The translations under genes were made by a program, and so were the position numbers. From Candidatus Gastranaerophilales bacterium (GTDB taxonomy: Bacteria > Cyanobacteriota > Vampirovibrionia > Gastranaerophilales > Gastranaerophilaceae), in assembly GCA_944323045.1 (NCBI GenBank), contig CALUQX010000009.1, positions 11,903 to 75,902 of the forward strand: 64,000 bases of DNA, in the 5' to 3' direction. Below are positions 4,117 through 63,918 of this stretch, piece by piece (position 1 is the stretch's first letter; every line of letters starts with the position of its first letter). The notes beneath the pieces were generated by a model. The model was not told the DNA's origin. It did no database searches and saw only the letters and a program-made list of their open reading frames with translations.

Positions 4117-4405
4117 AAAAATTTGAGACATATGTAATAATGAGTATAAGAATGGCAAAAACTGAGGAATTTGGATGACAGAGTTGTTGGCAGACCGAAA
4201 AGAACAAAATGTAGTTTTGGGTTTCCACCCCGACAATTTCCGTAGGGTGGGCAAAGCAGAGCGTGCCCACCGCAATGTTGGTAACTCCCAGCAAACGGAA
4301 CTTACTCCACTCACAATCCTCACCCCCTTCACTTTTGGTGCGTGCAAACATGAGCCTTTTGCATCTTGCAAAGTGGCTGAAACCCGCATGAATACTGAGT
4401 TTTGC

Positions 4406-4416
4406 GGGGGGGGGGG
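4406..4416 (+). repeat. homopolymeric G11 tract
   Basis: Counted directly: GC-GGGGGGGGGGG-TGCC. The homologous site upstream of paralog B has G10. Confidence 0.95.
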
Positions 4417-4480
4417 TGCCAAACTCTAAGCCCCACAAGGCTTTCCGGCACATTGCAAAATCGTGTCATAGTCAAAACCC

Positions 4481-4536
4481 GTCATCCCGCAACAGGATTG
4501 CGGCAATACACAGAGATTGTGACCTTGCGGGATCTC
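4481..4536 (+). repeat. polar stem-loop element (GTCAT-stem-loop-stem-ATCTC), copy 1 of a perfect direct repeat
   Basis: GTCATCCCGCAACAGGATTGCGGCAATACACAGAGATTGTGACCTTGCGGGATCTC. CCCGCAA can pair with either of two TTGCGG(G) segments. Confidence 0.85.
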
Positions 4537-5036
4537 AAACAAAAATTTACAGTAGACCGTATTTCCCAATCCGCCAGCACCACCACAAGCCAAAAACTTG
4601 TGAATAAATCAATAGTCCTATTAAAACCTACTTAATAAATAGAATTTATGCTAAATTAGCATTATGACAAAGAAAAAACATAAGGATAAAGAATTATGCC
4701 AAAAGATGAAGAATTAAACCAACAATTGAAGAACCACAAAATTCCTCTCCAAGGGGGAGGAAAAGAATTTGTTAGCGAATGTAATGAGCTTACAAATTCA
4801 GGAGGGGGTCAGACCAGTCCGCATTTATACACTGAGTGGTTGCTAAAGAAGTCCAATCACCCAAATTCGACCCAAAACAACTTGTTTCAGGGTCTAGCCA
4901 ACGTGACAGAGGTCGATGAGTTGAATACCCAAACAGTCGTCGCATTAGTGACCCCTCACCAAGAAAGGCTAGCCTCATTACATTCGTCAAGCCTTTCTAT
5001 CCTCTCCCGCAAGGGGCGAGGAGAACGTCATCCCGC

Positions 5037-5092
5037 AACAGGATTGCGGCAATACACAGAGATTGTGACCTTGCGGGATCTCAAAAGAAAAG
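5037..5092 (+). repeat. polar stem-loop element, copy 2 (identical to 4481-4536)
   Basis: About 60 nt identical to the copy 556 bp upstream, extending one base 5' and three bases 3' of the element. Confidence 0.85.
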
Positions 5093-5118
5093 TAGTAACA
5101 AAAAAGGAGAATAAAACA

Positions 5119-6246
5119 ATGAAACTAAACAACAACAAAGCAGTGGCTCAGACCAATTCCAGAAACGGACTTAACGTCCTAACGTCTTATCGTCTTAACG
5201 TCTTTGGAAGACGCTCCGCGTTTACCCTCGCCGAAGTCCTCATCACCCTTGCGATAATCGGCGTAGTGGCGGCGATAACGATACCAAGCCTTGTTAAGAA
5301 CTACAATGAGCATGCATGGTTAACCGCACAGGATGTGTTCACCAAAAGACTTGAAGTCGCAACCCGCCAAATGAACACCGAGGAAAAACTTGCGGGTTAC
5401 AGTTCGACAATGGATTTTGTAAACGAATTAAAGAAGAAAATCAAAATAACCAACGTATGCGATAGCAACAATTTGAGTAAATGCTTTGAAAGCACAATCT
5501 TAACAGCAGACGGTCAGGAAATAGATGCTACTAATTTAAAGACATCCGCCAAACTTGCCAAAGAGGATTGGGGAACGGAAACAGTTGGCGTGCAGTTTGC
5601 AAATGGAATAAATGCATTAATAGCATATAATCCGCAGACAGACCAACAACCGTTCAATAATCAGTTTAGTGCGACTGAGGCAAGCATGGCAATATTGTAT
5701 GACGTATCCGGACACAAAAATCCGAATACCTTAGGTAAAGACGTGAATCAGAACGCGAATGTTAAAAAATTAGGCTGTTATATTAAGCCGGATTTAGTAG
5801 GCGGTATGTGCATAAGCCAGATACTCGTCCCAGGAACAGGCTATAGCCCTATGACGAAAGCAGAATGCGACCAAGCAGTATCCGACGGAGAATTAGGGGT
5901 AAAGGCTTGCCAATATAATGATGATTATTGGGCAGGAGCAGTGAAAGCATGTGGAGGAATAAACAACATGCCAACAGAATCGCAATTAATAGACCTAGCT
6001 AAGTACGTATATAATACAGACAGTATAAACGGCGGAACAAGTACAACACATGCAACCTTAGACACAGAAAAAGCCTCTCAATTCCTCTCAGCATCCCCAT
6101 ATTCTAATTCGTTCTATGTTTGGTCTGGGCAGGAGAGCAGCAGCCTCGGCGCGTACTACCGCGACTTTCGCTATACCTACACGCTCTGGTACGACAGCAG
6201 CGCCCGCGACAGCAGCATCATACTCGCGGTTTGTCTTGACCAGTAA
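5119..6246 (+). CDS. prepilin-type N-terminal methylation-domain protein with lectin-like hypervariable C-terminus (paralog A)
   Basis: AAAAAGGAGA RBS before ATG 5119. AFTLAEVLITLAIIGVVAAITIPSL class-III signal/hydrophobic helix with E at +5. C-terminal YWAGAVKACGG..MPT..QL..LAKYVY...FYVWSG...AVCLDQ resembles the DUF1566/C-type-lectin-like layout. The ORF is open in frame back to 4696 (see findings). Confidence 0.85.
   Translation: MKLNNNKAVAQTNSRNGLNVLTSYRLNVFGRRSAFTLAEVLITLAIIGVVAAITIPSLVKNYNEHAWLTAQDVFTKRLEVATRQMNTEEKLAGYSSTMDFVNELKKKIKITNVCDSNNLSKCFESTILTADGQEIDATNLKTSAKLAKEDWGTETVGVQFANGINALIAYNPQTDQQPFNNQFSATEASMAILYDVSGHKNPNTLGKDVNQNANVKKLGCYIKPDLVGGMCISQILVPGTGYSPMTKAECDQAVSDGELGVKACQYNDDYWAGAVKACGGINNMPTESQLIDLAKYVYNTDSINGGTSTTHATLDTEKASQFLSASPYSNSFYVWSGQESSSLGAYYRDFRYTYTLWYDSSARDSSIILAVCLDQ
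6121..6243 (+). other. candidate DGR variable region (VR-A)
   Basis: GC-rich island in an AT-rich gene. By hand count, 24 of 30 codons in 6136-6225 end in C. Identical flanks in paralog B, with internal differences mostly at codon positions 1-2. Confidence 0.55.
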
Positions 6247-6261
6247 GAGGCGGAGCCTCTT
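6245..6261 (+). other. stop-codon-overlapping hairpin AAGAGGC-GGA-GCCTCTT (IMH/cruciform-like boundary)
   Basis: Perfect 7-bp stem. Identical copies sit at the 3' ends of paralogs B (24975-24991) and C (48389-48405, minus strand). Confidence 0.8.
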
Positions 6262-6780
6262 AATGGCGTGACTAGGTGATTAAGTGATTAGGTGATTAAG
6301 AGGATTTCAAAATGAGGCAATGCAAGAATCAAGCGTTGCCTTATTTTTATTAACTACTTAGTGCCTCAGTGCCTCAGTGCCTTAGTAACTTAGTAACTTT
6401 CAAGAGAGATCCCGCAAGGCGTCGAATCTAGCGTGACGCGTAAATGCCGCTGCGGGATGACATGGGGCGTTGGCTGCTCAATGTAACAACTGTTCACAGA
6501 TTACTGTTCACTGAGAACCGGTTCGTCGAAATGACAGCACCCTACGACTACGTTCATATTATTTGACCCCTCACCAAGTATTGACATTGCCTGTACTTCT
6601 TTAGCGGGCACCCAAAGTGTAAAAGCGGACTTGTCCGCCCCGCAAGGGGCGAGGAAAATTCAGCGTTGCCTGATTCATGTAACCCGCTTAATCACTTAAT
6701 CACCCAGTCACTTAATCACTTTTGTAACAACCGTTCACCGGTCTTGGTTAAAGCTTAACAAAATCAGGTACTCTGTTTTT
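6262..6780. repeat. mosaic interspersed-repeat region downstream of paralog A
   Basis: Concatenated modules: GTGATTAA 8-mers, a terminator-like hairpin, TAGTGCCT 8-mers, a polar stem-loop (6406-6463), GTTCAC 7-mers, the AGAACCGGTTCGTCGAAATGACAGCACCCTACGAC module (6514-6548) and a 93-nt module (6646-6738). Confidence 0.85.
6646..6738 (+). repeat. 93-nt conserved module (GGGGCGAGGAAAATTCAGCGTTGCCTGATTCATGTAACCCGCTTAATCAC...TTTTGTAACAACCGTTCAC)
   Basis: Identical by eye to 25315-25407. Partial reverse-complement copies at 41084-41159 and 33868-33919. Confidence 0.85.
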
Positions 6781-7997: not shown

Positions 7998-8866
7998 AAC
8001 TGATACCTGTTCTTTTCAAAACAAAAAATATTTATACAAGAAAATATCATTACAATTACCAGAAGAACAACCGCCATAGCAGATGCCATTCCCAAATCCA
8101 GATTCTCAAACGCTTTCTCGTATATATAATAAACAATAGTTTTGCTGGAATTTAGCGGACCGCCTTTGGTCATAACATAAATTTCTGCAAAAACTTTCAT
8201 TGCGGAAATTGCACTGATTGTTGTGACAAGTGCAATTGTCGGCATTATATGCGGAATTGTCACGGTTAGATGTTTGGTTAAAAAATTAGCCCCGTCAATG
8301 TCGCACGCTTCGTATAATTCTTTTGGAACACTCATTAAAGCCGCAAGATAAATTATCATATAATAACCGATACCCTTCCATATTGTAACAATCACAACAG
8401 AAAGAAGAGCCCATTTTGTATCCGTAAGCCAACCGATTTTTTCAAATCCTAAAGATGTAACAAGATAATTCAAAATCCCCTGATCTGCATAAAGCCATTT
8501 GAAAGCAATTGCAGCAACTACAATAGAAACAATTACCGGCAGATAAATCAAAATTTTATATAAAGTTATGCCGCGGATTTTCTGGTTGATTAAAATAGCC
8601 AGAAACAGCGGTATAACAGCCAGCACCGGCACTGCTAGTATAAGGTATAAAAATGTGTTTATCAAAACTTTATAAAAAATCGGATTGTGAAAAAGATTTA
8701 TATAATTTTGGAGCCCGTAAAATTCCGGAGAATAAATATTTGATGAATAATCTAAAAAACTGAGGATAAATGTCTGGAAAAACGGTATAAAGAAAAATAC
8801 CAGTAAAACAATTCCTGCTGGCAGTAAAAAAAGATATGGTGCGTATTTCCCGTAATATTTAAACAT
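7994..8866 (-). CDS. ABC transporter permease (carbohydrate uptake type, MalF-like)
   Basis: EAA-like loop (YEACDIDGANFLTKHLTVTIPHIMP). 4-nt overlap with the downstream permease gene. Confidence 0.85.
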   Translation of the reverse strand: MFKYYGKYAPYLFLLPAGIVLLVFFFIPFFQTFILSFLDYSSNIYSPEFYGLQNYINLFHNPIFYKVLINTFLYLILAVPVLAVIPLFLAILINQKIRGITLYKILIYLPVIVSIVVAAIAFKWLYADQGILNYLVTSLGFEKIGWLTDTKWALLSVVIVTIWKGIGYYMIIYLAALMSVPKELYEACDIDGANFLTKHLTVTIPHIMPTIALVTTISAISAMKVFAEIYVMTKGGPLNSSKTIVYYIYEKAFENLDLGMASAMAVVLLVIVMIFSCINIFCFEKNRYQL

Positions 8867-12827: not shown

Positions 12828-13820
12828 TTATTGCAAGTTTGTTGCACATAATATATTGTGCTTTTCTTCAGGAGTGTATCCATACCCACCATGCCAGCTA
12901 AAACATTTACACATGCGTTTACTGGAATTTTCAAAATAACTTGTTTCATTACCCCAATAGCAACTATCTGTAGGAAAAGGAATGCCATTATCCTCTATGT
13001 CATCGTGTAAATCTGACATATAGCTAAATGATAATGTTTGCATATTGGCGGCTTGACATATTTTTTCATAATCATACCAACTACTTTTTCCCATGTAAAC
13101 AAAACATTTATTATCAAATTCCAGGTCACATCCACTGGAAAAACGTGCTCCATTAAAACTTCTAATATCATTAATATTTTCACTATTAGTTTCTCGGTTA
13201 GGTGATTTTGCGCCGTTTACATCCGTAATATATGCTATCATATTTGTGCTATCAGATGTATATGCATACTCTTTGCTTTTGTTTTTACTGATTTTTATTG
13301 ATTTTTTAGTCCATTGTGGTGCTGATGTTGCATATACAGGTGATGACTGTGTATTATAGTTTAAAATTATGGATGTTCCATCTGCAAGTATTAACCCAAC
13401 ATTGTCAGTGGAATATCCATCGCCAAGACTTAAATTTTTACCTGTTTTTGCACGGCTAACATCAAACTCATTACCGTCATTATCAATAATTTTTGATGTA
13501 GACCAGCATGCCGCAATGTTATTTTTATTACATCTTTTTATTATTTTCAAATGTTTTTGTAAATTATCCACAAATTCATCTGTACTGTTATATGTAGTTT
13601 CTAACTCACCGAGAGCACGCATTTTATCAACAGCTTGCGTAATTTTATATGCAACATTAGCTTCTTTATTTGCCCATACAGTTGCAGTTATATTTTTCAT
13701 AATATTAGGTATTGTTATTGCTGCTACTACCCCGATTATCGCCATTGTAATAAGTACCTCTGCAAGTGTAAATGCTATTTCATGATTCTGTTTGTTAATC
13801 TGATTTTTTACAATTTTCAT
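12828..13820 (-). CDS. prepilin-type N-terminal methylation-domain protein (P4)
   Basis: MKIVKNQINKQNHEI-AFTLAEVLITMAIIGVVAAITIPNI. DVNGAKSPN motif shared with the other paralogs. Cys-rich C-terminal domain. Confidence 0.8.
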   Translation of the reverse strand: MKIVKNQINKQNHEIAFTLAEVLITMAIIGVVAAITIPNIMKNITATVWANKEANVAYKITQAVDKMRALGELETTYNSTDEFVDNLQKHLKIIKRCNKNNIAACWSTSKIIDNDGNEFDVSRAKTGKNLSLGDGYSTDNVGLILADGTSIILNYNTQSSPVYATSAPQWTKKSIKISKNKSKEYAYTSDSTNMIAYITDVNGAKSPNRETNSENINDIRSFNGARFSSGCDLEFDNKCFVYMGKSSWYDYEKICQAANMQTLSFSYMSDLHDDIEDNGIPFPTDSCYWGNETSYFENSSKRMCKCFSWHGGYGYTPEEKHNILCATNLQ

Positions 13821-18138: not shown

Positions 18139-18828
18139 ATGAAATATAGCGGCATAATATTTGATTTTAACGGTACATTGTTTTTCGATTCAGAAAAACA
18201 TCTTGAGGCGTGGCGGGAATTTTCAAGACGCCTGCGCGGCACAGCATTCACTGATGATGAAATGCGCAAATACATGTTTGGAAGAACAAATGAAGATATT
18301 ATTGCTTATGCAATACAAAAACAACCGACAAAAGAACAGGTTGAACAGCTTGCTAAGGAAAAAGAGTCCCTTTATCGTGATATGTGCAGAAAAGATCCTG
18401 AAAATTTCAAACTTGCACCTGGTGCTGTTGAATTTCTTGACTGGCTGAAAGAAAATAATATCCCCCGCACTATTGCAACCATGTCAGAAAAAGATAATGT
18501 GGATTTTTACATTGAAGGCTTTAATCTTGCCCGCTGGTTTGATGTTGATAAAATTGTCTATTCTGACGGTACTATGCGCGGAAAACCTGCACCTGATATT
18601 TATGAAATTGCAGCTGCAAAACTTGATTTAAAACCGGAGGAGTGTATTGTTGTTGAAGATGCACTTTCAGGGATTGAGGCTGCAAAAAATGCCGGTATAG
18701 GGAAAATTATTGCAATTGCATCAATGGATGGCAAAGATGTTTATGAAAATATTACCTGCGTAAGTCAAATTATTACTACATTTGATGAAATTGACAGAGA
18801 AATTTTTGAACAAAAAGTTACCTGCTAA
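18139..18828 (+). CDS. HAD-superfamily hydrolase (beta-phosphoglucomutase-like subfamily IA)
   Basis: Motif I (IFDFNGTL), motif II T, motif III K (RGKPAPDIY) and motif IV (VVEDALSGIEAAKNAG). Confidence 0.8.
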   Translation: MKYSGIIFDFNGTLFFDSEKHLEAWREFSRRLRGTAFTDDEMRKYMFGRTNEDIIAYAIQKQPTKEQVEQLAKEKESLYRDMCRKDPENFKLAPGAVEFLDWLKENNIPRTIATMSEKDNVDFYIEGFNLARWFDVDKIVYSDGTMRGKPAPDIYEIAAAKLDLKPEECIVVEDALSGIEAAKNAGIGKIIAIASMDGKDVYENITCVSQIITTFDEIDREIFEQKVTC

Positions 18829-19589
18829 TTGCCGCATTTGTGCTTGCCATTCCAACTTAAATCATTACAGTGCCAGTAATCCATGTTCCCGTTTTCAATA
18901 ACCCAGCCGGCGCATCCCCAGCCAGCAGCAGAATCTGACAGGCAACCGGTTTCAAAAACATAGCCCGCTGCTGTATAATTCCTCGCCCCTACAGGTACTA
19001 AAGTTCCACGCTTAGTGAGATTAAATATAAATAAATCCTTGCCATAAGTATTTGGCTTGGAAGACCCGTTCACATCTACAATATATTCCCCGCAGATATT
19101 AGTTAAATCTCCAGTACCCAAATTTATGCTGCATGCGCCATCAGCAGTCATATTGGCATAAATACCTACTATCATTCCGTCTGCAAGCTGCATGCCTGCT
19201 CTGCCGGTTCCGTCGCCGCCATTAAATACATGAGTATCCAGTTTCTCGCCTCTACGCATATATAATGTATCTGCTGTATGGCATTTGCTATTGCCGTCAT
19301 TACAGAATTTTGCATGCTTAATATACGGGAAAATCGTCGTAAGCAAAACATCAGGGACATCACTTGTTATCCCCCACATATCAGGTGTTCCGTGTTCAAT
19401 AACAGCCATTTGTACTGCTTGATTAATAGTCGAATAGAACTTTTTCAATGCTGTTACTCTTGCTTTTTCCTGATATTTTTGCACGAGAGAAGGTATTGTT
19501 ATAGCAGCAACAATACCGATTATTGCCATTGTGATAAGTACTTCTGCAAGTGTAAATGCAAAATTTTTAGTATGCAGCGATTTTGTCAT
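18825..19589 (-). CDS. prepilin-type N-terminal methylation-domain protein (P5)
   Basis: MTKSLHTKNF-AFTLAEVLITMAIIGIVAAITIPSL. VDVNGSSKPNTYGKDLFIF. Cys/Trp-rich C-terminus (WVIENGNMDYWHCNDLSWNGKHKC), paralogous to P7. Confidence 0.8.
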   Translation of the reverse strand: MTKSLHTKNFAFTLAEVLITMAIIGIVAAITIPSLVQKYQEKARVTALKKFYSTINQAVQMAVIEHGTPDMWGITSDVPDVLLTTIFPYIKHAKFCNDGNSKCHTADTLYMRRGEKLDTHVFNGGDGTGRAGMQLADGMIVGIYANMTADGACSINLGTGDLTNICGEYIVDVNGSSKPNTYGKDLFIFNLTKRGTLVPVGARNYTAAGYVFETGCLSDSAAGWGCAGWVIENGNMDYWHCNDLSWNGKHKCGN

Positions 19590-23403: not shown

Positions 23404-23836
23404 CTCATCGGTCAGTCAGTAGACCGTATTTCCCAATCCGCCAGAACCAACACAAGCCGAAAGCTTGTGCATAAGTCAATAGTCCTATTAAAGCCTACTT
23501 AATAAATAGAATTTGTGATAAATTAGTATTATAACAAAGAAAACATAAGGATAAAGAATTATGCTAAATGATGAAGAATCAAATCAACAATTGAAGAACC
23601 ACAAAATTCCTCTCCGTGGGGGAGGAAGAAATTTGTTGCCGAACGGAGAGAGGCTAGAAATTTCAGGAGGGGGTCGGACCAGACCACATATAGTCCCCCC
23701 ACCCGAACCACTAAACTCACGAAAGTTCGTTAAGTGGTTCCGCCCTCCCCTCAGGAGAGGGCACCAAGCCAACCACGAGGAAACAATCAGTAATACACAA
23801 TCAGAAGATAGAAACAACAGAAAGGAGCAACTCCAA

Positions 23837-24976
23837 ATGAAAACCAAAAACAAAATCAACGAATCAACCGCTCAGACCAATTCCAGAAACAACGGTACTC
23901 ACCATACTCACTTCACTCACTTAGTCACGTCCCCAAAAGCCGCGTTTACCCTCGCCGAAGTCCTAATCACCCTCGCAATCATCGGCGTAGTAGCGGCGAT
24001 AACGATACCGAGCTTAGTCAAGAATTACAATGAAAAGGCATGGGAAAGTGGACAAAAAGTTTTTGAAAACAGATTACTTGTAGCTACACGTCAGATGAAC
24101 ACAGAGGAAAAATTGGCAGGTTATTCTTCAACCATGGACTTTGTGAATGAGTTGAAAAAATATATTAAAATAACCCGTGTCTGCGATAATGACAACATTA
24201 CCAAATGCTTTAATAAAGAAGTAATCTGGAGTGCTGATGAAGAGCCGGTAGACATGTCAAAAGTAACAGATGCATCAGCTTTTGGTCTGGATTGGGAGAC
24301 TGATACGGTAGCAGTTCAGTTTGCGAACGGTGTAAATGCAGTAATTGCTTACAATCCGAATGCAACACAAGACCCATATAATAACCAGTTTGCGGCGACC
24401 TCAAAATCCATGGCAATATTGTATGATTTGTCAGGAAACAAGAATCCGAATACAAATGGTAAGGATATAAAAAATATAAATGTAGACCAGTTAGCCGGTG
24501 TAGAAGGCTGTTTGATACCTGAGTTAAAAGATACAATGTGCATAACGAAAATTATATCTCCGGAAGAATACGGATATTTATCATATTCAGAATGTACCGA
24601 GGCTAAGAATAACGGCGAAATAGACGTAGATGCATGTTATAATGGCTCAAGTCCAGATTATTTTGCGGGCGCAGTAAAAGCATGTGGAGGTAAGAAAGCA
24701 AACTTACCAAGCCAAGACCAGCTAACGCAGCTAGCAAAATATGTATATGGAACAGACAGTATAAACTCCAGCGGTTATACATATGACCTAGCTTTAGACA
24801 CAACCAAAGCCTCCCAATTCCGCTCAGCAAGAGGTACTGATTACTTCTATGTTTGGTCTGGGCAGGAGTATAGCCGCGACCGCGCGTACTTCCGCTTCTT
24901 CTACTCTACCGGCACGAACGGGAACGACTGCAACCGCCACTACAGCTACGCTCTTGCGGTTTGTCTAGACCAGTAA
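23837..24976 (+). CDS. prepilin-type N-terminal methylation-domain protein with lectin-like hypervariable C-terminus (paralog B)
   Basis: AAAGGAG RBS before ATG 23837. AFTLAEVLITLAIIGVVAAITIPSL. Central 79 aa identical to paralog C. C-terminal FYVWSGQE...AVCLDQ. The ORF is open in frame back to 23561. Confidence 0.85.
   Translation: MKTKNKINESTAQTNSRNNGTHHTHFTHLVTSPKAAFTLAEVLITLAIIGVVAAITIPSLVKNYNEKAWESGQKVFENRLLVATRQMNTEEKLAGYSSTMDFVNELKKYIKITRVCDNDNITKCFNKEVIWSADEEPVDMSKVTDASAFGLDWETDTVAVQFANGVNAVIAYNPNATQDPYNNQFAATSKSMAILYDLSGNKNPNTNGKDIKNINVDQLAGVEGCLIPELKDTMCITKIISPEEYGYLSYSECTEAKNNGEIDVDACYNGSSPDYFAGAVKACGGKKANLPSQDQLTQLAKYVYGTDSINSSGYTYDLALDTTKASQFRSARGTDYFYVWSGQEYSRDRAYFRFFYSTGTNGNDCNRHYSYALAVCLDQ
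24853..24973 (+). other. candidate DGR variable region (VR-B)
   Basis: By hand count, 22 of 29 codons in 24869-24955 end in C. Flanks identical to VR-A. Confidence 0.55.
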
Positions 24977-24991
24977 GAGGCGGAGCCTCTT
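24975..24991 (+). other. stop-codon-overlapping hairpin AAGAGGC-GGA-GCCTCTT
   Basis: Identical to 6245-6261. Confidence 0.8.
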
Positions 24992-25540
24992 AATGGAGGC
25001 ACTAAGTTACTAAGGCACTAAGGCACTAAGGATTAAATTGAAATAAGGTAATGTGAAACGCGCACATTGCCTTATTTTTTGTAAAGAACTTGTTCCCTTA
25101 ACAACAAGCAATGTGGAAAATTCCACGTTGTCTGTTGTTGTAACTACTTAGTGCCCTAGCCCCCTAGTGCCTTAGTAACTTCTGTTTCTGAGATCGCGCA
25201 ACTGCTTGGTTGCTCGCAATAAACGGGTCTACGGGCTGCTCCGCCGGCTCCACGCCGCCGTGTGCGCCCTGCGCCCTCTGCTCGCAATCCGCAAGTGCGC
25301 GATGACATGGTATAGGGGCGAGGAAAATTCAGCGTTGCCTGATTCATGTAACCCGCTTAATCACTTAATCACCCAGTCACTTAATCACTTTTGTAACAAC
25401 CGTTCACTGTTCACCGTTCACAATTCACAGAGAACCGGTGCGTCGAAACGACAGCACCCTACGAATAACTTCTTTAGCCGCCACCCAGAGTATAAGAGTA
25501 GGCTACGCCTACCTGCGCCTACCCACTTGTAAATGTTTTG
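24992..25540. repeat. mosaic interspersed-repeat region downstream of paralog B
   Basis: Same module set as 6262-6780 in a different order. It also holds a polar stem-loop (25190-25310) whose loop is a very GC-rich ~100-nt insert. Confidence 0.85.
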
Positions 25541-26389: not shown

Positions 26390-26401
26390 ATAAATTCGGT
26401 G

Positions 26402-26433
26402 AACAGTGAACAGTTTACTGTTCACTGTTTTTT
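26402..26433 (+). terminator. Rho-independent terminator built from GTGAACA/TGTTCAC repeat units
   Basis: AACAGTGAACAG-TTTA-CTGTTCACTGTT: a 12-bp stem followed by TTTT. Confidence 0.75.
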
Positions 26434-26802: not shown

Positions 26803-26908
26803 TTAAGACGTTAGGAAGTTAAATAAAACAGTCTTAGTTAAATTTTGTAAAATATATATTTATTGAAATGCACTTAACGTCTTAGCGTCTTAACGTCCCA
26901 ACGTCTTT
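26803..26908. repeat. inverted CTTAACGT-type 8-mer units flanking an AT-rich spacer (MITE-like)
   Basis: Left arm TTAAGACGTTAGG is the reverse complement of units in the right arm CTTAACGTCTTAGCGTCTTAACGTCCCAACGTCTTT. Confidence 0.6.
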
Positions 26909-26926
26909 AGCTCATGAGGTTAGTTA

Positions 26927-32493: not shown

Positions 32494-33288
32494 TTAGATT
32501 TTATACGGATAATTGTCTTTATACTCCCAATTGTCCATCCGTAGTAAATCTGAACAGTATTTGCCGTTTTGGGCGCATAAATCGTATATATGCTCATGGT
32601 AATTTTCGTAGCGAGATGGTTGGTACCCATAAGTCCCAAAGTATTGTTTGTTTGTTTCAAAATAGGTTTTTCTGGAGCTTACCAGTGGCGAAAAAAGGAA
32701 GCGGTATCTGTCATAACCCTCTTTATCCGGTCCTTCGTCTCCGTTAACATCATAAAAGAAATCTATACAATCCCCGTTGTTTACAAAAAATGTGGAGCCG
32801 TCATTTAGATAGACTTTAGTTAATTTGACAATTGTTCCATTATTTATTTCGATTGGTTGATTCTCTTCTATTTTTAGATATTTCATGTATGGCAGTATGT
32901 ATGTATTTACAAATTCAAATCCGTCTTTTGCATTGGTTAATCTGGCTTGTTCAATTTCATCCTCATCTTCCAGTTCATTTATGTTTATATACTCTTTTTT
33001 ATTCCAGTATTCTACGGCGCCGTTATGCACAGTTGACATTTCAATCGCCTGTTGCATTGTAGAGTAGAATTTTTGCAATTTTGTTGAATATTCTTTCTTT
33101 TTGTAACCTTGTATTAATGACGGAACAGTAATCGCTGCCACCACGCCGATTATTGCGAGGGTGATGAGAACTTCAGCGAGCGTAAACGCGTTGGCTCGTT
33201 TGAGGAAGTGAGTGCTGTGAGTAAAGTGAGTACCGTGGTTTCTTTGATTAGGCTTTGTACTTGTTTCTTCTTTTGTGTTGGTTTTCAT
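32494..33288 (-). CDS. prepilin-type N-terminal methylation-domain protein (P6)
   Basis: ...GTHFTHSTHFLKRAN-AFTLAEVLITLAIIGVVAAITVPSL. YDVNGDEGPDKEGYDRYRFLF motif. The leader is encoded by GTGAGT-type 9-mers (33205-33235). Confidence 0.8.
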   Translation of the reverse strand: MKTNTKEETSTKPNQRNHGTHFTHSTHFLKRANAFTLAEVLITLAIIGVVAAITVPSLIQGYKKKEYSTKLQKFYSTMQQAIEMSTVHNGAVEYWNKKEYININELEDEDEIEQARLTNAKDGFEFVNTYILPYMKYLKIEENQPIEINNGTIVKLTKVYLNDGSTFFVNNGDCIDFFYDVNGDEGPDKEGYDRYRFLFSPLVSSRKTYFETNKQYFGTYGYQPSRYENYHEHIYDLCAQNGKYCSDLLRMDNWEYKDNYPYKI

Positions 33289-33770: not shown

Positions 33771-33950
33771 GAGTGAGTAAGGTGAGTGAAGTGAGTATTG
33801 TGAGTAAAGAACTGTAGTCGTAGGGTGCCGTCGTTTCGACGCACCGGTACTCAGTGACCAGTGAATGGTGAACGGTTGTTACAAAAGTGATTAGGCGACT
33901 GGGTGATTAAGTGATTAAGAGGGTTTGAAGTGGACCCCTAAAAGTGGACC
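33771..33950. repeat. mosaic repeat fragment abutting the IS3 remnant
   Basis: GTGAGTNNN 9-mers (33771-33809), the GTCGTAGGGTGCCGTCGTTTCGACGCACCGGT module (33817-33848), GTGAAC units and the GTGATTAAG module. Confidence 0.8.
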
Positions 33951-40981: not shown

Positions 40982-41970
40982 CGTAGTTTGGGGACAATTG
41001 AAAAATAATAGCGGGCACCGATTCGGAGACCCGTGAGCAGTCGTAGGGAGCCGTCGTTTCGACGAACAGGTTCGCTGTGAATTGTGAACGGTTGTTACAA
41101 AAGTGATTAAGTGACTGGGTGATTAAGTGATTAAGCGGGTTACTTGAATCAGGCAACGCCACCATGTCATCGCGCAGCGGCATAGTCGCAATTCTAGCAA
41201 GTCGTAGATAATGCGCGATCTCTACCAATAACGTCATCCCGCAAGCGGCATTTACGCGTCACGCAAGAATCGTCGCCTTGCGGGATCTCTTATGGAGGTC
41301 GTTAAGTTACTAAGGCACTGAGGCACTAAGTAGTTAATAAAATCAGGTAATGTGGAATGCAGCATTGCTTGTGTTTTTCATGTCCTCCCCTGGAGGGAGG
41401 ACCGGAATTTTTAATTCCGAGGAGGGGGACGCGAACGTAGTGAGCGTTTAATAACTAGAACACTGTCAAGTGCAACATGGGCTAGATGCTGAAACAGTCT
41501 TGGTTGCTCGCGTGTGTCTTACTCGTTCGCGTTTAGCAGGTCTTCGGTTGACGCCAGCAATGGCAGAGCCATTTTGCCGTCAAGCCTCCGCCTTCCGCTC
41601 TCTCGCGCAACGGCGTTCCGGACTTTCTTTTCAGCGGCTTTGCCGCCTCCAAAGAAAGCTCCTACAGCCTCTGCTCGCAATCCGCAGTTCAGCATGACAA
41701 AAAATAAATAAGGCAACGCTTGAATCTTGCTTTGCCTTATTTTGAAATCCTCTTAATCACCTAATCACTCAGTCACCTAATCACTTTAAAACAGAGATCG
41801 CGCAACCCGTGCGCGATGACATGAAAACATCCGACAACATGGGATATCCACATTGCCTGATTAATTGTAAATACTTTACTCACATTACTCACCCCACTCA
41901 CTTTAGTCACTCTTTTTGAGATCACGCAAGTCATCAAGTCTTGTGCGCTCCGTCCTTCGATTCAATATAC
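40982..41970. repeat. orphan ~1-kb non-coding mosaic repeat region
   Basis: Module set of the paralog A/B downstream regions in inverted orientation. Includes two tandem polar stem-loops (41166-41222, 41233-41289), a third at 41794-41823 and a GC-rich island at 41470-41700. Only repeat-derived ORFs are present. Confidence 0.8.
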
Positions 41971-48009: not shown

Positions 48010-48388
48010 GAAAAGTGAAGAGAGTGAGTGATGTGAGTAAGGTGAGTGTAGTGAGTAAAGTGTTTACAAGTCGTAGGGTGCCGTCGTTTCGACGAACCGA
48101 TTTTCTGTGAACAGTGACCTGTGACCAGTGAACGGTTGTTTTGGAAAAGACGTTAGGACGATAAGACGTGTCTTGGATTTGCCCCACGCTCGGAAAGTTT
48201 CGCTTTTGAACCTGCGGTTCAACTCCGCTCAATTTCCTCGCTATCCGGATTTGTGCCTTCGGCACTCCATCCGTGCGCAAATCCGCTAAGTCCGTTAAGA
48301 AGAAACAGGCAATGTGGAAAAGCCTACGTTGTCTGTTGTTGTAACTACTTAGCCCCTTAGTGCCTTAGTAACTTAGTGCCTTTCCATT
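48010..48388. repeat. mosaic interspersed-repeat region downstream of paralog C
   Basis: GTGAGTNNN 9-mers (48015-48060), the GTCGTAGGGTGCCGTCGTTTCGACGAACCG module (48070-48099), GTGAAC/GTGACC units, ACGTTAGG units and TTAGTGCC units. Confidence 0.8.
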
Positions 48389-48405
48389 AAGAGGCTCCGC
48401 CTCTT
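48389..48405 (-). other. stop-codon-overlapping hairpin (same as at paralogs A and B)
   Basis: AAGAGGCTCCGCCTCTT on the plus strand, which is the reverse complement of AAGAGGCGGAGCCTCTT. Confidence 0.8.
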
Positions 48406-49516
48406 AATGGTCAAGACAAACCGCGAAGAATTTTTTGTTACGGTTGTCGTAGCGCGGACCTGTGCTGGTATAGCCGAAGTGTCTAGCGTCCTCTGCGGTA
48501 GATGACCAAACATAGAACCGTTCAGAATATGATGTTAAAGCTGAGAGGAATTGGTCTGCTTTTTCTGTATCTAATGTTATGCCTGATACACTCTTATGGG
48601 CGTCTATTGTGAATTTCAAATTATATAAATATGTCGCTAGTTCGCCTAGATGTGTCATTGTTGGCATGTTGTTTATTCCTCCGCATGCCGCCACTGCCCC
48701 TGCCCAATAATCATAGTCAGACGTACATTTGTTTATACCTAAGTCTTCCTTTTGTTCTTCACATAGAGCTTTACTTAATGGGCTATACAGTGAGAGTATT
48801 TGAGTTATGCAAAATCCTACTTCGTCTTCTGGCAGCAAGCAGCCTGTTACGCCTGCTAGTTGGGTTACATTTGCGTTATGGGCAATGTCTTTGCCGTTGG
48901 TATTCGGATTTTTGTTGCCGGAGACATCGTAAAGTATCGCCATGCTGTTACTTGTGGCGTTGAACTGGTTATTATACGGGTCTTGGGTCGCATTCGGATT
49001 GTAGGCAATTACTGCATTTACGCCATTCGCAAATTGCACTGCCACCGTATCAGTCTCCCAATCCAGACCAAAAGCTGATGCATCTGTTACTTTTGACATG
49101 TCTACTGGTTCCTCATCAGCACTCCAAATAACTTCTTTATTAAAGCATTTTGTAATATTGTCATTATCGCAGACTCTTGTGATTTTAATATATTTTTTCA
49201 ACTCATTCACAAAGTCCATGGTTGAATTGTAACCGGCTAGTTTTTCCTCTGTGTTCATTTGTCTTGTGGCTACCTCAAGGCGTTTTTCAAAGACATCTTT
49301 TGCGGTTAACCATGCATGCTCATTGTAATTTTTCACTAGGCTTGGTATCGTTATCGCTGCCACCACGCCGATGATTGCGAGGGTGATTAAGACCTCTGCC
49401 AAAGTAAACGCGGCTTTTGGGGAAGTGATTAAGTGAGTGAAGTGAGTACGGTGAGTACCGTTGTTTCTGGAATGGGTCTGAGCCATGGCTTCGTTGATTT
49501 TGTTGTTAGTTTTCAT
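48404..49516 (-). CDS. prepilin-type N-terminal methylation-domain protein with lectin-like C-terminus (paralog C)
   Basis: Start chosen by homology to paralog B (…CAACTCCAAATGAAAAC); the ORF track extends to 49564. AFTLAEVLITLAIIGVVAAITIPSL. C-terminal FYVWSS...AVCLDH. Confidence 0.85.
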   Translation of the reverse strand: MKTNNKINEAMAQTHSRNNGTHRTHFTHLITSPKAAFTLAEVLITLAIIGVVAAITIPSLVKNYNEHAWLTAKDVFEKRLEVATRQMNTEEKLAGYNSTMDFVNELKKYIKITRVCDNDNITKCFNKEVIWSADEEPVDMSKVTDASAFGLDWETDTVAVQFANGVNAVIAYNPNATQDPYNNQFNATSNSMAILYDVSGNKNPNTNGKDIAHNANVTQLAGVTGCLLPEDEVGFCITQILSLYSPLSKALCEEQKEDLGINKCTSDYDYWAGAVAACGGINNMPTMTHLGELATYLYNLKFTIDAHKSVSGITLDTEKADQFLSALTSYSERFYVWSSTAEDARHFGYTSTGPRYDNRNKKFFAVCLDH

Positions 49517-49709
49517 TTGGAGTTGTTCCTTTCCTGTTTTTCTAGCTTCTGTTTTGGTATTCATAAATATTCCTTATATTCTTAACTTATATTTACATTT
49601 TACCACATGTTTAAGATAAATACAACATGTTTGTTACAAATAATTTACCGGCGTGTTTATTAGCCCTGTATCAAGATGTAGGCTAAAATTTACCTATAGG
49701 GATAAAATA

Positions 49710-55954: not shown

Positions 55955-56782
55955 TTAATCACATTTTGTTTTACTGCCCCAATCTAAGTCATTGCATCTT
56001 AGGTAGTCCATATTCCCGTTAATTATAACCCAGGCTGTACACGCATAACCTGCATATATATCATCGTGTGTCATATTGCAATTTTCGTCAAATATATATT
56101 GTTCACTTAATGTTGAATCGTGCGTTCCTGTTGGATATATACCGTATTTAGTAAACAAAAATCTGAATGAATCTACCCCTGTTCTGTTAGGTCCTTTTTC
56201 GCCATTCATATCTATAACGAAGTTACCACAGACATTTTCCAAATATCTGCCGGAGCCAAATTTTAGATTACAGTTTCCTTCAAACCAGCTTGAAACTATT
56301 GATGTGCCATCTGCAAGTGTGATATGGCGTGCATATTCGGAACTAAGCAATTGATCCCCTCGTAAATTATATATAGAATATGTTTGACCACAGTTCTGTG
56401 ATGCAAATGAACAAAATTTATCAACCTTTAAATAAGGCAGAATTCGCTGCCAGACTAAGTCATACCGGGCGTGTGCCGCATCAACTTCATCCTGATTAGA
56501 GTTATCTTCGTTGGGCAGCACAGATGTTGGCAAATCCCACGTATCCAATGTACCGTGTTCAAGCATTGCAAGATTTGCGGCATTAGTTATTACAGAATAA
56601 AATTTCTTAACTTTGGTTATCATGACTTTTTCCTGATATTTTTGAACAAGTGTTGGAATTGTCATTGCGGCAACTACTCCTATTATTGCGAGTGTTATTA
56701 ATACCTCGGCAAGAGTAAATGCTGTATTCCAGTTCGCTGCGTAATCTTTTCCAGACAATTTAATTTGCGTAATGTTTTTCAT
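55955..56782 (-). CDS. prepilin-type N-terminal methylation-domain protein (P7)
   Basis: ...AANWNT-AFTLAEVLITLAIIGVVAAMTIPTL. IDMNGEKGPNRTGVDSFRFLF. The C-terminus (WVIINGNMDYLRCNDLDWGSKTKC) is paralogous to P5. Confidence 0.8.
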   Translation of the reverse strand: MKNITQIKLSGKDYAANWNTAFTLAEVLITLAIIGVVAAMTIPTLVQKYQEKVMITKVKKFYSVITNAANLAMLEHGTLDTWDLPTSVLPNEDNSNQDEVDAAHARYDLVWQRILPYLKVDKFCSFASQNCGQTYSIYNLRGDQLLSSEYARHITLADGTSIVSSWFEGNCNLKFGSGRYLENVCGNFVIDMNGEKGPNRTGVDSFRFLFTKYGIYPTGTHDSTLSEQYIFDENCNMTHDDIYAGYACTAWVIINGNMDYLRCNDLDWGSKTKCD

Positions 56783-62886: not shown

Positions 62887-63918
62887 ATGAGTGTTAACAC
62901 TTTTTTTATCCTGATAGGCTTTGTATTTATTATTGGCTTATGTATAGGAAGTTTTTTAAATGTTGTTATTTTACGGGCGCTGTCAAATGAATCTATTATC
63001 TTTCCGCCGTCAAAATGTCCTGTATGCGGAAACAGTCTGAAATGGTGGCATAACATTCCTGTATTGTCTTATATTCTACTGAAGGGCAAATGCGGGTTCT
63101 GTAAATGTAAAATCAGTATTCAATATCCGATTGTAGAACTTTTAACAGGAATTTTATTCACATTTGTATTCATTAAATTTTTTATAGGCTCCGCAATATT
63201 AACCGGAATAACTGCAGGTACATATATTAATACAATTTATGCATGGATAGTTATATCCCTGCTAATTGTTATGGCAGTAACTGATATAAAAGAAAAAGTT
63301 GTGTTTGATGCGCACACATATTCTCTGATTGGCGCCGGACTTGTTTATGCAATGCTTATCACGGGTTCTGCAATATATTTTAGTTTAACAAGCACAGGCA
63401 AACTGCCGCTGAATACATCTTTCCTTATAAACAATCCTCTGACAGATGCATTATTAGGTCTTGCTGCAGGAGTTATTATAATGGAACTTCTTGCGCGTAG
63501 CGGATATCTATTCGCTGGCACAAGGGCTTTTGGTGAAGGTGATACCTTCATTGCTGCAGGTATCGGGGCTGTCTTTGGCTGGAAAAAGCTTATCGCGGCT
63601 CTGGTCTTAAGTATAATAATCCAGCTTATCATCACATTACCATTATTTTTGAAAAAATTATTTGACAACAAGGAGTATTTTACATTTGGAACGCTTTCAG
63701 GTTTCTTCATTTATGCGGCGGCATTTTTGATTCTGCAAAGCAAAGGACTGCTTTCAAATAGTATTGTATATTTAGTTGCGGCTGTTTTACTTGCAATCAT
63801 CGGAATTACTGCCTGCATTAACATTATTAAAGGTATTAAAAGCAATCCGGATAACATGATTTATCTTCCATTTGGACCGGCTATGGCTATTGCGGCTTTA
63901 ATTATGATTTGCATATAA
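62887..63918 (+). CDS. pilD: prepilin peptidase / N-methyltransferase (A24 family)
   Basis: N-terminal CPVCG...CGFC zinc motif. Polytopic membrane protein with two conserved Asp motifs (VTDIKEK; GEGDTFIAAGIGAVFGW). Confidence 0.85.
   Translation: MSVNTFFILIGFVFIIGLCIGSFLNVVILRALSNESIIFPPSKCPVCGNSLKWWHNIPVLSYILLKGKCGFCKCKISIQYPIVELLTGILFTFVFIKFFIGSAILTGITAGTYINTIYAWIVISLLIVMAVTDIKEKVVFDAHTYSLIGAGLVYAMLITGSAIYFSLTSTGKLPLNTSFLINNPLTDALLGLAAGVIIMELLARSGYLFAGTRAFGEGDTFIAAGIGAVFGWKKLIAALVLSIIIQLIITLPLFLKKLFDNKEYFTFGTLSGFFIYAAAFLILQSKGLLSNSIVYLVAAVLLAIIGITACINIIKGIKSNPDNMIYLPFGPAMAIAALIMICI

What the first reader, a model, noticed from the sequence alone, without database searches (positions are those of the whole stretch)
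24853..24991. Paralog B carries a second cassette of the same type, so one DGR may serve several remote targets
22 of 29 codons in 24869-24955 end in C (hand count). Several AAC codons are retained (ACG AAC GGG AAC GAC TGC AAC), as expected if some template adenines are unmutated. The cassette is one codon shorter than in A. Its borders and the stop-overlapping hairpin (24975-24991) are identical to paralog A, 18.7 kb away. Two VRs with identical IMH-like boundaries suggest a single trans-acting template and RT diversifying several loci. Multi-target DGRs are known, but not, to my knowledge, for pilin-anchored proteins.
Basis: partly seen in the sequence, partly recalled or inferred. Interest (0 to 1): 0.8.

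Follow-up and report, generated by a model that had tools for sequence, protein, structure and literature searches.

The report
Retroelement-written tip of a pilin-like protein
The last ~40 codons of this pilin-like gene carry the signature of a diversity-generating retroelement. The retroelement is not in the window, and this copy looks frozen rather than actively mutating, so it is a new example of a known system.

Summary
In 24869-24955, 22 of 29 codons end in C, against 22% in the rest of the gene (p about 2e-9). Both borders and the hairpin match paralog A.

The cassette is a DGR variable region (VR). A synthetic "template translation" query recovered real bAvd-TR-RT cassettes in related Gastranaerophilales gut contigs. 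Each lies next to a paralogous prepilin-type gene. Their 125-nt template repeats (TRs) are colinear with VR-B, and B's NNC codons sit on TR AAC codons.

In those relatives the adjacent VR differs in every sample, at TR adenines only (15-21 of 42-43 adenine sites; 0-1 of 82-83 other sites).

The one-DGR, several-remote-targets reading is not shown:
- The window has no TR, RT or Avd.
- The nearest TR mismatches B at 9 of 81 non-adenine sites, so the cognate TR was not found.
- A and B differ at 3-4 sites that adenine mutagenesis cannot explain, plus one codon indel.
- VR-A and VR-B are (near-)identical across all assemblies that carry them.
- Their 3' hairpin differs from that of the active targets.

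Remote DGR targets and pilin-type targets are already described. Verdict: a new member of a known kind, probably a quiescent VR.

The parts
23837..24976 (+). Paralog B: prepilin-type protein, 379 aa. The real start is ATG 23837, after AAAGGAG. The mechanical ORF from 23561 is an upstream extension.
   Evidence: The protein is identical to P0001 as called in public assemblies. PF07963 N_methyl and TIGR02532 both match.
23942..24010 (+). Prepilin cleavage/methylation motif and hydrophobic helix (A|FTLAEVLITLAIIGVVAAITIPS).
   Evidence: The same motif occurs in 7 genes of the window.
24509..24976 (+). C-terminal globular domain (155 aa) that carries the VR on its last four strands.
   Evidence: AlphaFold2 domain model has pLDDT 96 and pTM 0.90. 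Fold and profile hits are weak only, all to CLec2-type families: Lcl_C/DUF1566, Fib_succ_major and A33R.
24845..24971 (+). VR-B: DGR-type variable region, colinear with the 125-nt TRs of related DGRs. The variable core is 24869-24955.
24845..24868 (+). 5' border, identical to paralog A over 24 nt.
24956..24974 (+). 3' border, IMH-like: GCGGTTTGTCTAGACCAGT. It is related to, but different from, GCGGTTTGCCTAGGTGATTAA of the active targets.
24970..24996 (+). Hairpin over the stop codon. The core is AAGAGGC-GGA-GCCTCTT at 24975-24991.
   Evidence: It differs from the GCGCGATTTT-TCCAG-AAAATCGCGC hairpin of the active targets.
5119..6246 (+). Paralog A (375 aa). It carries VR-A at 6112-6241 and the same hairpin at 6245-6261.
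48404..49564 (-). Paralog C (386 aa). It has the same 5' and 3' borders and hairpin (48389-48405), but its cassette is not of the NNC type.

Best explanation
VR-B is the variable region of a DGR target gene. The gene encodes a type IV pilin-like (prepilin N-methyl) protein of a Gastranaerophilales-type gut bacterium. Its C-terminal domain probably displays the ~38 variable codons at the pilus surface. The cassette was written by mutagenic retrohoming: an AAC-rich template repeat is transcribed, reverse-transcribed with errors at adenines, and the cDNA replaces the VR. This produced NNC codons wherever the template has AAC (inferred from homologous cassettes). The bAvd-TR-RT cassette is not in this window, so any writing came from elsewhere in the genome. 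On present evidence VR-A and VR-B are quiescent or rarely rewritten. They are copies derived from a template close to TR type T1 but not identical to it. They have since picked up a few ordinary mutations and a changed 3' recognition end. Only the DGR-adjacent paralog in related genomes is actively hypermutated.
For: 1. A consensus peptide with N at every variable position retrieved a single protein, P0129. It is an ORF lying over a TR between a bAvd gene (PF22296) and an RVT_1 gene with IGNLTSQ and YVDD motifs.
2. RT homologues gave four cassette types, T1-T4. T1 and T2 sit directly downstream of an N_methyl target gene. T3 and T4 were seen only as bAvd-TR-RT, on contigs that are cut upstream.
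3. All four TRs are 125 nt, and T1 aligns codon for codon with VR-B (T2-T4 were aligned only by pairwise alignment). Every NNC codon of B lies on a T1 AAC, and B's GCT lies on T1's AAA.
4. B against T1 shows 20 mismatches at 42 adenine sites and 9 at 81 other sites, p = 1.3e-5. A against T1 shows 21 of 42 and 11 of 82.
5. True VR/TR pairs in 17 assemblies show 15-21 mismatches at adenines and 0-1 elsewhere, and every sample differs. L014 and L015 differ at 17 sites in 3.6 kb, all of them in the VR.
6. Evidence for stasis: VR-B is identical in P0001, P0121 and P0122. VR-A is identical on 5 contigs, with one single-residue variant on 2 more. A T1-type VR in a non-adjacent paralog (P0087 group) is likewise identical in five near-identical sequences recorded on about 10 contigs.
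7. The window's 3' end lacks the canonical hairpin of the active targets.
Against: The cognate TR and RT were never seen, so the A-to-N-only criterion is unverified for this genome. The collections that could be scanned gave nothing, and the rest of the genome could not be fetched. The stasis argument rests on 3-7 assemblies whose independence (individuals, time points) I could not check. Assemblies also report only the majority allele. The DQ*-plus-hairpin 3' end is common in the family, with a different VR in each protein. That end may therefore be a working recognition site for a DGR I did not capture. Fold assignment to the C-type-lectin-like class is only suggestive: Foldseek E >= 0.08 and Pfam E >= 0.02.
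Confidence: 0.62

Rival explanations
1. One reading: one DGR elsewhere in this genome acts in trans. It currently diversifies A and B (and perhaps C) as remote targets through their shared IMH-like border and hairpin.
For: A and B share a 24-nt 5' border, a 41-nt 3' border with one mismatch, and an identical hairpin. They share five derived non-adenine states relative to T1: TAT, TCT, third-base C in the CAG codon, T in the CCT codon, and TGT. This fits one T1-like template. A-versus-B differences fall mainly on template-adenine columns, 25 against 7. One-codon indels relative to the cognate TR do occur in real VRs, in 3 of 17. Relatives have variable targets whose TR is not within 10 kb. Remote targets are known (PMC5758913).
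Against: No TR, RT or Avd is in the 64 kb or in the flanks reached on related contigs. Three or four A/B differences are synonymous or non-adenine changes that no seen TR type explains. The VRs are invariant across assemblies while adjacent targets of relatives differ in every sample. Paralog C has the same borders without an NNC cassette, so shared borders reflect paralogy and are not proof of targeting.
Confidence: 0.22
2. The VR-bearing C-terminal modules were written by DGRs in other strains or other loci. They were then moved onto these paralogs by recombination or gene conversion. The cassettes are imported, and no DGR in this genome ever acted on them.
For: Close homologues have a strictly identical ~250-aa N-terminal part joined to different C-terminal modules and leaders. 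This is a mosaic pattern. P0121 has a different leader but the same VR-B.
Against: This has not been shown for A or B specifically. It does not exclude local writing, and it is compatible with the main explanation rather than exclusive of it.
Confidence: 0.12
3. No retroelement is involved. The cassette is ordinary paralog divergence, with local codon bias or selection for Tyr/Ser/Asn/Asp-rich loops.
For: No TR is in the window. Similar amino-acid preferences occur in other binding loops.
Against: The variable columns coincide with adenines of real TRs from sister genomes (p about 1e-5). The cassette is colinear with those TRs to the codon. NNC codons in a genome of about 37% GC occur at p about 2e-9. 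The same gene family sits next to bAvd-TR-RT in relatives.
Confidence: 0.03

Closest known systems
DGRs with non-adjacent or remote targets (Treponema denticola TvpA family; Lineage 4 cellular DGRs; cyanobacterial multi-target DGRs)
   Same: One gene family has C-terminal VRs scattered over the chromosome. AAC-rich TRs and a bAvd-TR-RT cassette lie next to one paralog in relatives. Remote targets are described in PMC5758913, PMC4891356 and PMC7517822.
   Different: The TR/RT for these particular VRs was not found here. The VRs fail the strict A-to-N-only test against every TR seen and appear static.
CLec2 / category 'd' DGR targets (DUF1566, DUF823, Fib_succ_major; Legionella LdtA)
   Same: The VR lies at the extreme C-terminus and ends in a conserved ...LAVC motif. 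Weak, mixed matches to Lcl_C/DUF1566 and Fib_succ_major are the behaviour PMC5758913 describes for this category.
   Different: No match reaches significance. The N-terminal anchor is a type IV prepilin helix, not a lipoprotein signal.
DGR-diversified pilus proteins (Bacteroides type V pilus adhesins; rare 'G-type pilin' VR proteins)
   Same: A hypervariable ligand-binding tip is mounted on a pilus subunit (bioRxiv 10.1101/2024.11.15.621889; PMC11661182).
   Different: The pilus here is of the type IV / T2SS pseudopilin class (PF07963) in Gastranaerophilales. I found no paper on DGRs in this lineage.
Bordetella phage BPP-1 DGR (mtd / avd / TR / brt)
   Same: The cassette order in the relatives is target-avd-TR-RT. 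Substitutions are adenine-specific. A GC-rich IMH-like 3' end is followed by a hairpin.
   Different: The element is cellular, not phage-borne: there were no IMG/VR hits. The hairpin of the window copies (7-bp stem, 3-nt loop, over the stop codon) differs from that of the active relatives (10-bp stem, TCCAG loop, about 25 nt after the stop).

Membership tests
DGR variable region / target gene | A template repeat that differs from the VR only at template adenines | tested here: inconclusive
   No TR is in the window. Four TR types from relatives are colinear with the VR. The nearest (T1) mismatches B at 20 of 42 adenine sites but also at 9 of 81 other sites. Mismatches are enriched at adenines but not confined to them, so the cognate TR remains unseen.
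DGR variable region / target gene | A DGR-clade reverse transcriptase (and usually Avd) in the same genome | tested here: inconclusive
   Both are absent from the 64 kb: motif scan and tblastn with two RT and two Avd sequences. The flanks reached on related contigs also showed none. The rest of the genome could not be fetched. Relatives have bAvd plus RT next to a paralog.
DGR variable region / target gene | VR at the 3' end of the ORF, with variable codons of the NNC type corresponding to AAC | tested here: met
   22 of 29 codons end in C. Each NNC codon aligns to an AAC of T1.
DGR variable region / target gene | IMH at the VR 3' end plus a downstream hairpin/cruciform | tested here: inconclusive
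   A GC-rich border and a stable hairpin are present. Both differ from those of the demonstrably active targets, and the canonical hairpin is absent from the window.
DGR variable region / target gene | Population-level variation confined to the VR | tested here: not met
   VR-B is identical in 3 assemblies. VR-A is identical on 5 contigs, with one single-residue variant on 2 more. Adjacent targets of relatives vary in 17 of 17 assemblies. Read-level data were not available.
C-type lectin-like (CLec2 / DUF1566 / Fib_succ_major) target fold | Significant structural or profile match to the fold | tested here: inconclusive
   The domain model is confident (pLDDT 96). The best Foldseek hits are Lcl C-terminal domain at E = 0.29, and Fib_succ_major phage proteins at E = 0.08 (probability 0.91 over 46 columns). 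Pfam gives Lcl_C at E = 0.1 and A33R at E = 0.023. A PDB profile search found nothing.
Type IV pilin / T2SS pseudopilin class | N-terminal prepilin cleavage/methylation motif followed by a hydrophobic helix | tested here: met
   PF07963 scores 24.1 bits against a cut-off of 21.2, and TIGR02532 scores 22.6 against 16.3. The profile matches PilA and geopilin N-terminal helices. A prepilin peptidase gene lies at 62887-63918.

The most novel reading that the evidence does not exclude
Gastranaerophilales may run a two-tier system for varying their pilus tips. One pilin-like paralog next to the DGR is hypermutated continuously. Several remote paralogs hold archived DGR-written cassettes that are stable, have altered recognition ends, and are reshuffled by recombination among paralogs and strains. 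This would work like a silent-cassette bank fed by a retroelement.
Probability: 0.2. Interest if true: 0.6.

Novelty: new member of a known kind. Interest (0 to 1): 0.38.

Why it matters
The finding documents that a large gene family (more than 4,500 database relatives) of type IV pilin-like surface proteins is a DGR target family. The hosts are uncultured human-gut Gastranaerophilales. In relatives there is clear population-level hypermutation of the DGR-adjacent copy. This points to rapidly evolving pilus-tip binding specificities in a poorly known gut lineage.

It also gives a concrete contrast between hypervariable adjacent VRs and static remote VRs. That contrast bears on how DGR targets are recruited and retired. 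It does not reveal a new mechanism.

Tried and rejected
- **TR in the window.** blastn with word size 7 and a degenerate VR/TR pattern with 3 mismatches found only A, B and C.
- **RT or Avd in the window.** A motif scan and tblastn were both negative.
- **GTDB genomes.** The degenerate pattern hit only two further VRs, L001 and L002, and no TR.
- **JGI metagenomes.** A strict predicted TR and then a degenerate pattern both gave 0 hits, which exhausted these scans.
- **IMG/VR.** Four DNA patterns and one protein query all gave 0 hits, which argues against a phage-borne element.
- **My first predicted TR was wrong.** I fixed T at codon 8 and used TAT and AGG. The real TRs show AAC, CCT/TCC and TGG/CGG at those places.
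- **Search for the cognate RT.** The best candidate (P0131/P0264, 78-79% identical to the T1 RT) sits on contigs cut just upstream of the RT, so its TR is unseen. P0133 and P0134 gave TR types T4 and T3, which are not cognate.
- **Source contig.** Look-up of the 471-aa ORF product failed.
- **Rfam.** No family matched the GC-rich downstream regions. My early idea that they were group II intron domain V/VI was dropped.
- **Hairpin as part of a dispersed repeat.** Rejected, because it occurs only at the three paralog ends.
- **Foldseek with the full-length model.** Uninformative, because the N-terminus is disordered.

Full report
**Observation**

The ORF holding the finding is mechanically 23561-24976. 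The real gene starts at ATG 23837, after AAAGGAG, and encodes 379 aa. That product is identical to a protein called in public assemblies.

In frame, 24869-24955 is 29 codons, of which 22 end in C. The rest of the gene has 22.5% third-position C, so the binomial p is 1.6e-9. The retained AAC codons and the one-codon length difference from paralog A are real.

The 5' border is identical to A over 24 nt. The 3' border plus hairpin is identical over 41 nt apart from one base. The hairpin AAGAGGC-GGA-GCCTCTT folds at -10.2 kcal/mol (z = -3.9). It occurs only three times in the window, each time at the end of one of three paralogs.

The third paralog, C (48404-49564, minus strand), has the same borders and hairpin. 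Its cassette is A-rich and not of the NNC type.

**What the genes are**

A, B and C carry a prepilin cleavage/methylation motif (PF07963, TIGR02532) followed by a long hydrophobic helix. This places them with type IV pilins and T2SS pseudopilins. The window holds seven genes with the same N-terminus, and a prepilin peptidase gene at 62887-63918.

The family is large. 4,594 relatives scored E <= 0.001 among the 8,000 candidates scored. All share the C-terminal pattern FYVWSGQEYSxxxAYxRxFxSTxTxWxxxxRxxSxxLAVC.

The last 155 residues fold into a confident compact domain (pLDDT 96, pTM 0.90), with the VR on its last strands. Structural and profile matches are all weak. They nevertheless all point to the CLec2-type DGR target families:
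- Lcl C-terminal domain, 8q4e, E = 0.29.
- Phage Fib_succ_major proteins, E = 0.08, probability 0.91 over 46 columns.
- DUF1566.
- Pfam Lcl_C at E = 0.1 and poxvirus A33R at E = 0.023.

Wu et al. describe exactly such weak, mixed matches for their category 'd' targets (PMC5758913). I treat the fold as suggestive, not established.

**Search for the retroelement**

The window holds no second copy of the cassette. It has no RT motif and no tblastn match to the RT or Avd proteins later found in relatives. Contigs that extend beyond the window, by less than 10 kb on either side, show only housekeeping genes.

A degenerate VR/TR pattern found two more VRs in GTDB genomes. One is in a Candidatus Gastranaerophilales MAG. 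The same approach found nothing in JGI metagenomes or IMG/VR.

The breakthrough came from a small alignment of synthetic peptides. These were the family consensus with Asn at every variable position, which is what an AAC-rich TR would encode. It retrieved a single 52-aa protein, P0129: MTFYVWSGKEYSQNNAYNRNFNPTNTNWNNNNRNNSNKLAVCLGN....

Its contig carries bAvd (PF22296), then this TR, then a 381-aa RVT_1 protein with IGNLTSQ and YVDD motifs. This is a canonical DGR cassette.

**Related DGRs**

Searching with that RT and looking up its relatives gave four cassette types:
- T1: RT P0130/P0250.
- T2: RT P0132.
- T3: RT P0134.
- T4: RT P0133.

T1 and T2 lie directly downstream of a prepilin-type target gene. 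T3 and T4 were seen only as bAvd-TR-RT, because their contigs are cut upstream. All come from human-gut metagenome contigs of the same cohorts that contain the window's species. One RT relative is named Candidatus Gastranaerophilales by its source.

The window's taxonomy is therefore an inference from this association, not a direct identification.

Within T1 and T2 the TR is identical in every sample, while the adjacent VR differs in every sample. Across 17 assemblies there are 15-21 mismatches at the 42-43 TR adenines and 0-1 at the 82-83 other positions. Two T2 samples differ at 17 positions in 3.6 kb, all of them inside the VR.

This is textbook DGR activity on pilin-like targets in this lineage.

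**VR-B against the templates**

All four TRs are 125 nt. T1 aligns codon for codon with VR-B. Every NNC codon of B lies on a T1 AAC codon, and B's GCT lies on T1's AAA.

Against the nearest type (T1), B mismatches at 20 of 42 adenine sites and 9 of 81 other sites (Fisher p = 1.3e-5). A mismatches at 21 of 42 and 11 of 82.

The cassette is therefore DGR-written, but not by any TR I recovered. The cognate template would be roughly 88% identical to T1 at non-adenine positions. The best candidate RT (P0131/P0264) sits on contigs that are cut before the TR.

**One template for A and B?**

A and B share five derived non-adenine states relative to T1. They differ mostly at template-adenine columns, 25 against 7. 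This fits closely related templates.

Of the 7 non-adenine differences, three can be explained by TR variants seen elsewhere (AAC at codon 9; AGC/AAC at codon 11; an A in the second base of codon 21, as in T3's GAT). Three or four cannot: the third base of TAT/AGC, TTT/TTC, CTC/CTT, and TGG/GGG. Two of those, TTT/TTC and CTC/CTT, are synonymous C/T changes that look like ordinary drift.

A also has one extra codon in the (AAC)4 run. The indel alone is not disqualifying, since 3 of 17 genuine VRs carry a one-codon deletion relative to their own TR. Genuine VRs, however, show at most one non-adenine mismatch.

**Activity**

VR-B is identical in three database sequences from different contigs, one of which has a different leader peptide. 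The exact paralog A protein is recorded on 5 contigs. A variant on 2 more contigs differs in the VR by a single residue, D505G. Paralog C is equally stable.

Another non-adjacent paralog with a T1-type VR (P0087 group) is likewise identical in five near-identical sequences recorded on about 10 contigs.

Targets adjacent to the DGR are different in every sample, although their RT is identical across dozens of contigs.

The 3' recognition region also differs:
- Active targets end ...GCGGTTTGCCTAGGTGATTAA and have a 10-bp hairpin, GCGCGATTTT-TCCAG-AAAATCGCGC, about 25 nt further on.
- The window copies read ...GCGGTTTGTCTWGACCAG|TAAGAGGC-GGA-GCCTCTTA.
- An intermediate in L001 shows this hairpin replacing the 3' arm of the canonical one. 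The window version lacks about 40 nt in between.

I conclude, with moderate confidence, that A and B are quiescent or rarely rewritten.

There are caveats. The independence of the assemblies is unknown, and no read-level data were available. The DQ*-plus-hairpin end is common in the family, with different VRs in each protein, so it may serve a DGR I did not capture. Relatives also have a second variable target whose TR is not within 10 kb.

**Comparison with what is known**

Remote and multiple DGR targets are well documented. In one survey, 45 of 372 DGRs had non-adjacent targets, and Treponema has seven (PMC5758913). Metagenome surveys explicitly miss remote targets (PMC8144416).

VRs in G-type pilin proteins have been noted as rare (PMC11661182). 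Bacteroides DGRs diversify type V pilus adhesins (bioRxiv 10.1101/2024.11.15.621889).

I found no paper linking DGRs with Gastranaerophilales or Melainabacteria.

The finding is therefore a new member of a known kind. It is of moderate interest for the lineage and for the contrast between active adjacent VRs and static remote VRs.

Noticed in passing
window 6519-6547(+), 25436-25464(+), 33818-33846(-), 41041-41069(-), 48071-48099(-): A dispersed GC-rich non-coding element has a conserved hairpin block, CGGTKCGTCGAAAYGACRGCACCCTACGA, in five copies where none are expected by chance. Three copies lie downstream of paralogs A, B and C, and two lie elsewhere. There was no Rfam match in the regions tested, and the function is unknown.
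   Followed up: partly
window 25000-25032 / 25148-25180, 6268-6300 / 6350-6400, 25356-25420, 26398-26430, 26870-26910: Intergenic regions are full of imperfect tandem 8-mers (CACTAAGG, TTAATCAC, GTTCACYG, AACGTCTT). These recur as inverted pairs flanking short GC-rich cores, which looks like MITE-type or structured-RNA clamps specific to this lineage.
   Followed up: no
window 12828-13820(-), 18825-19589(-), 32494-33288(-), 55955-56782(-); 62887-63918(+): Four further genes share the identical prepilin N-terminus AFTLAEVLIT(L/M)AIIG but have no NNC cassette. A prepilin peptidase gene (PF06750/PF01478) is also in the window.
   Followed up: partly
window 4696-5118 and 23561-23836: The sequences upstream of A and B are conserved with each other. 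They stay open in frame, which produces spurious long ORFs (516 and 471 aa) that some public annotations adopted. They include a GC-rich palindrome, TTCCTCTCCGTGGGGGAGGAA, at 23607-23627.
   Followed up: no
L015 11704-12966; L019 4037-5299: In T2-type DGR loci a second pilin-like target lies downstream of the RT and has its own VR. That VR differs at 21 sites between two samples. It is not colinear with the local TR, and no matching TR lies within 10 kb. This implies a second template or a second DGR elsewhere in that genome.
   Followed up: partly
L021 ~8625-8746, L028 ~942-1067, L031 ~479-604: Three of 17 assembled DGR-adjacent VRs carry a one-codon deletion relative to their own TR, always inside AAC runs. 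This could be reverse-transcriptase slippage or mixed-population assembly.
   Followed up: no
L029 873-1178; L036 174-461: A small GIY-YIG ORF flanked by ~100-nt direct repeats is inserted beside the DGR cassette in two relatives. In L036 and in the Logan contigs it coincides with the assembly break that hides the TR.
   Followed up: no
L002 (CAYUIW010000005.1) 41-934: A contig labelled as a Muribaculaceae MAG carries a typical member of this Gastranaerophilales pilin/VR family next to ribE and ribBA. This is probably a mis-binned contig.
   Followed up: no
L007-L010 (left of window) ending near window ~4400-4700: Contigs from four independent samples all break just upstream of paralog A. This fits assembly collapse at the near-identical N-terminal halves of the paralogs.
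   Followed up: no
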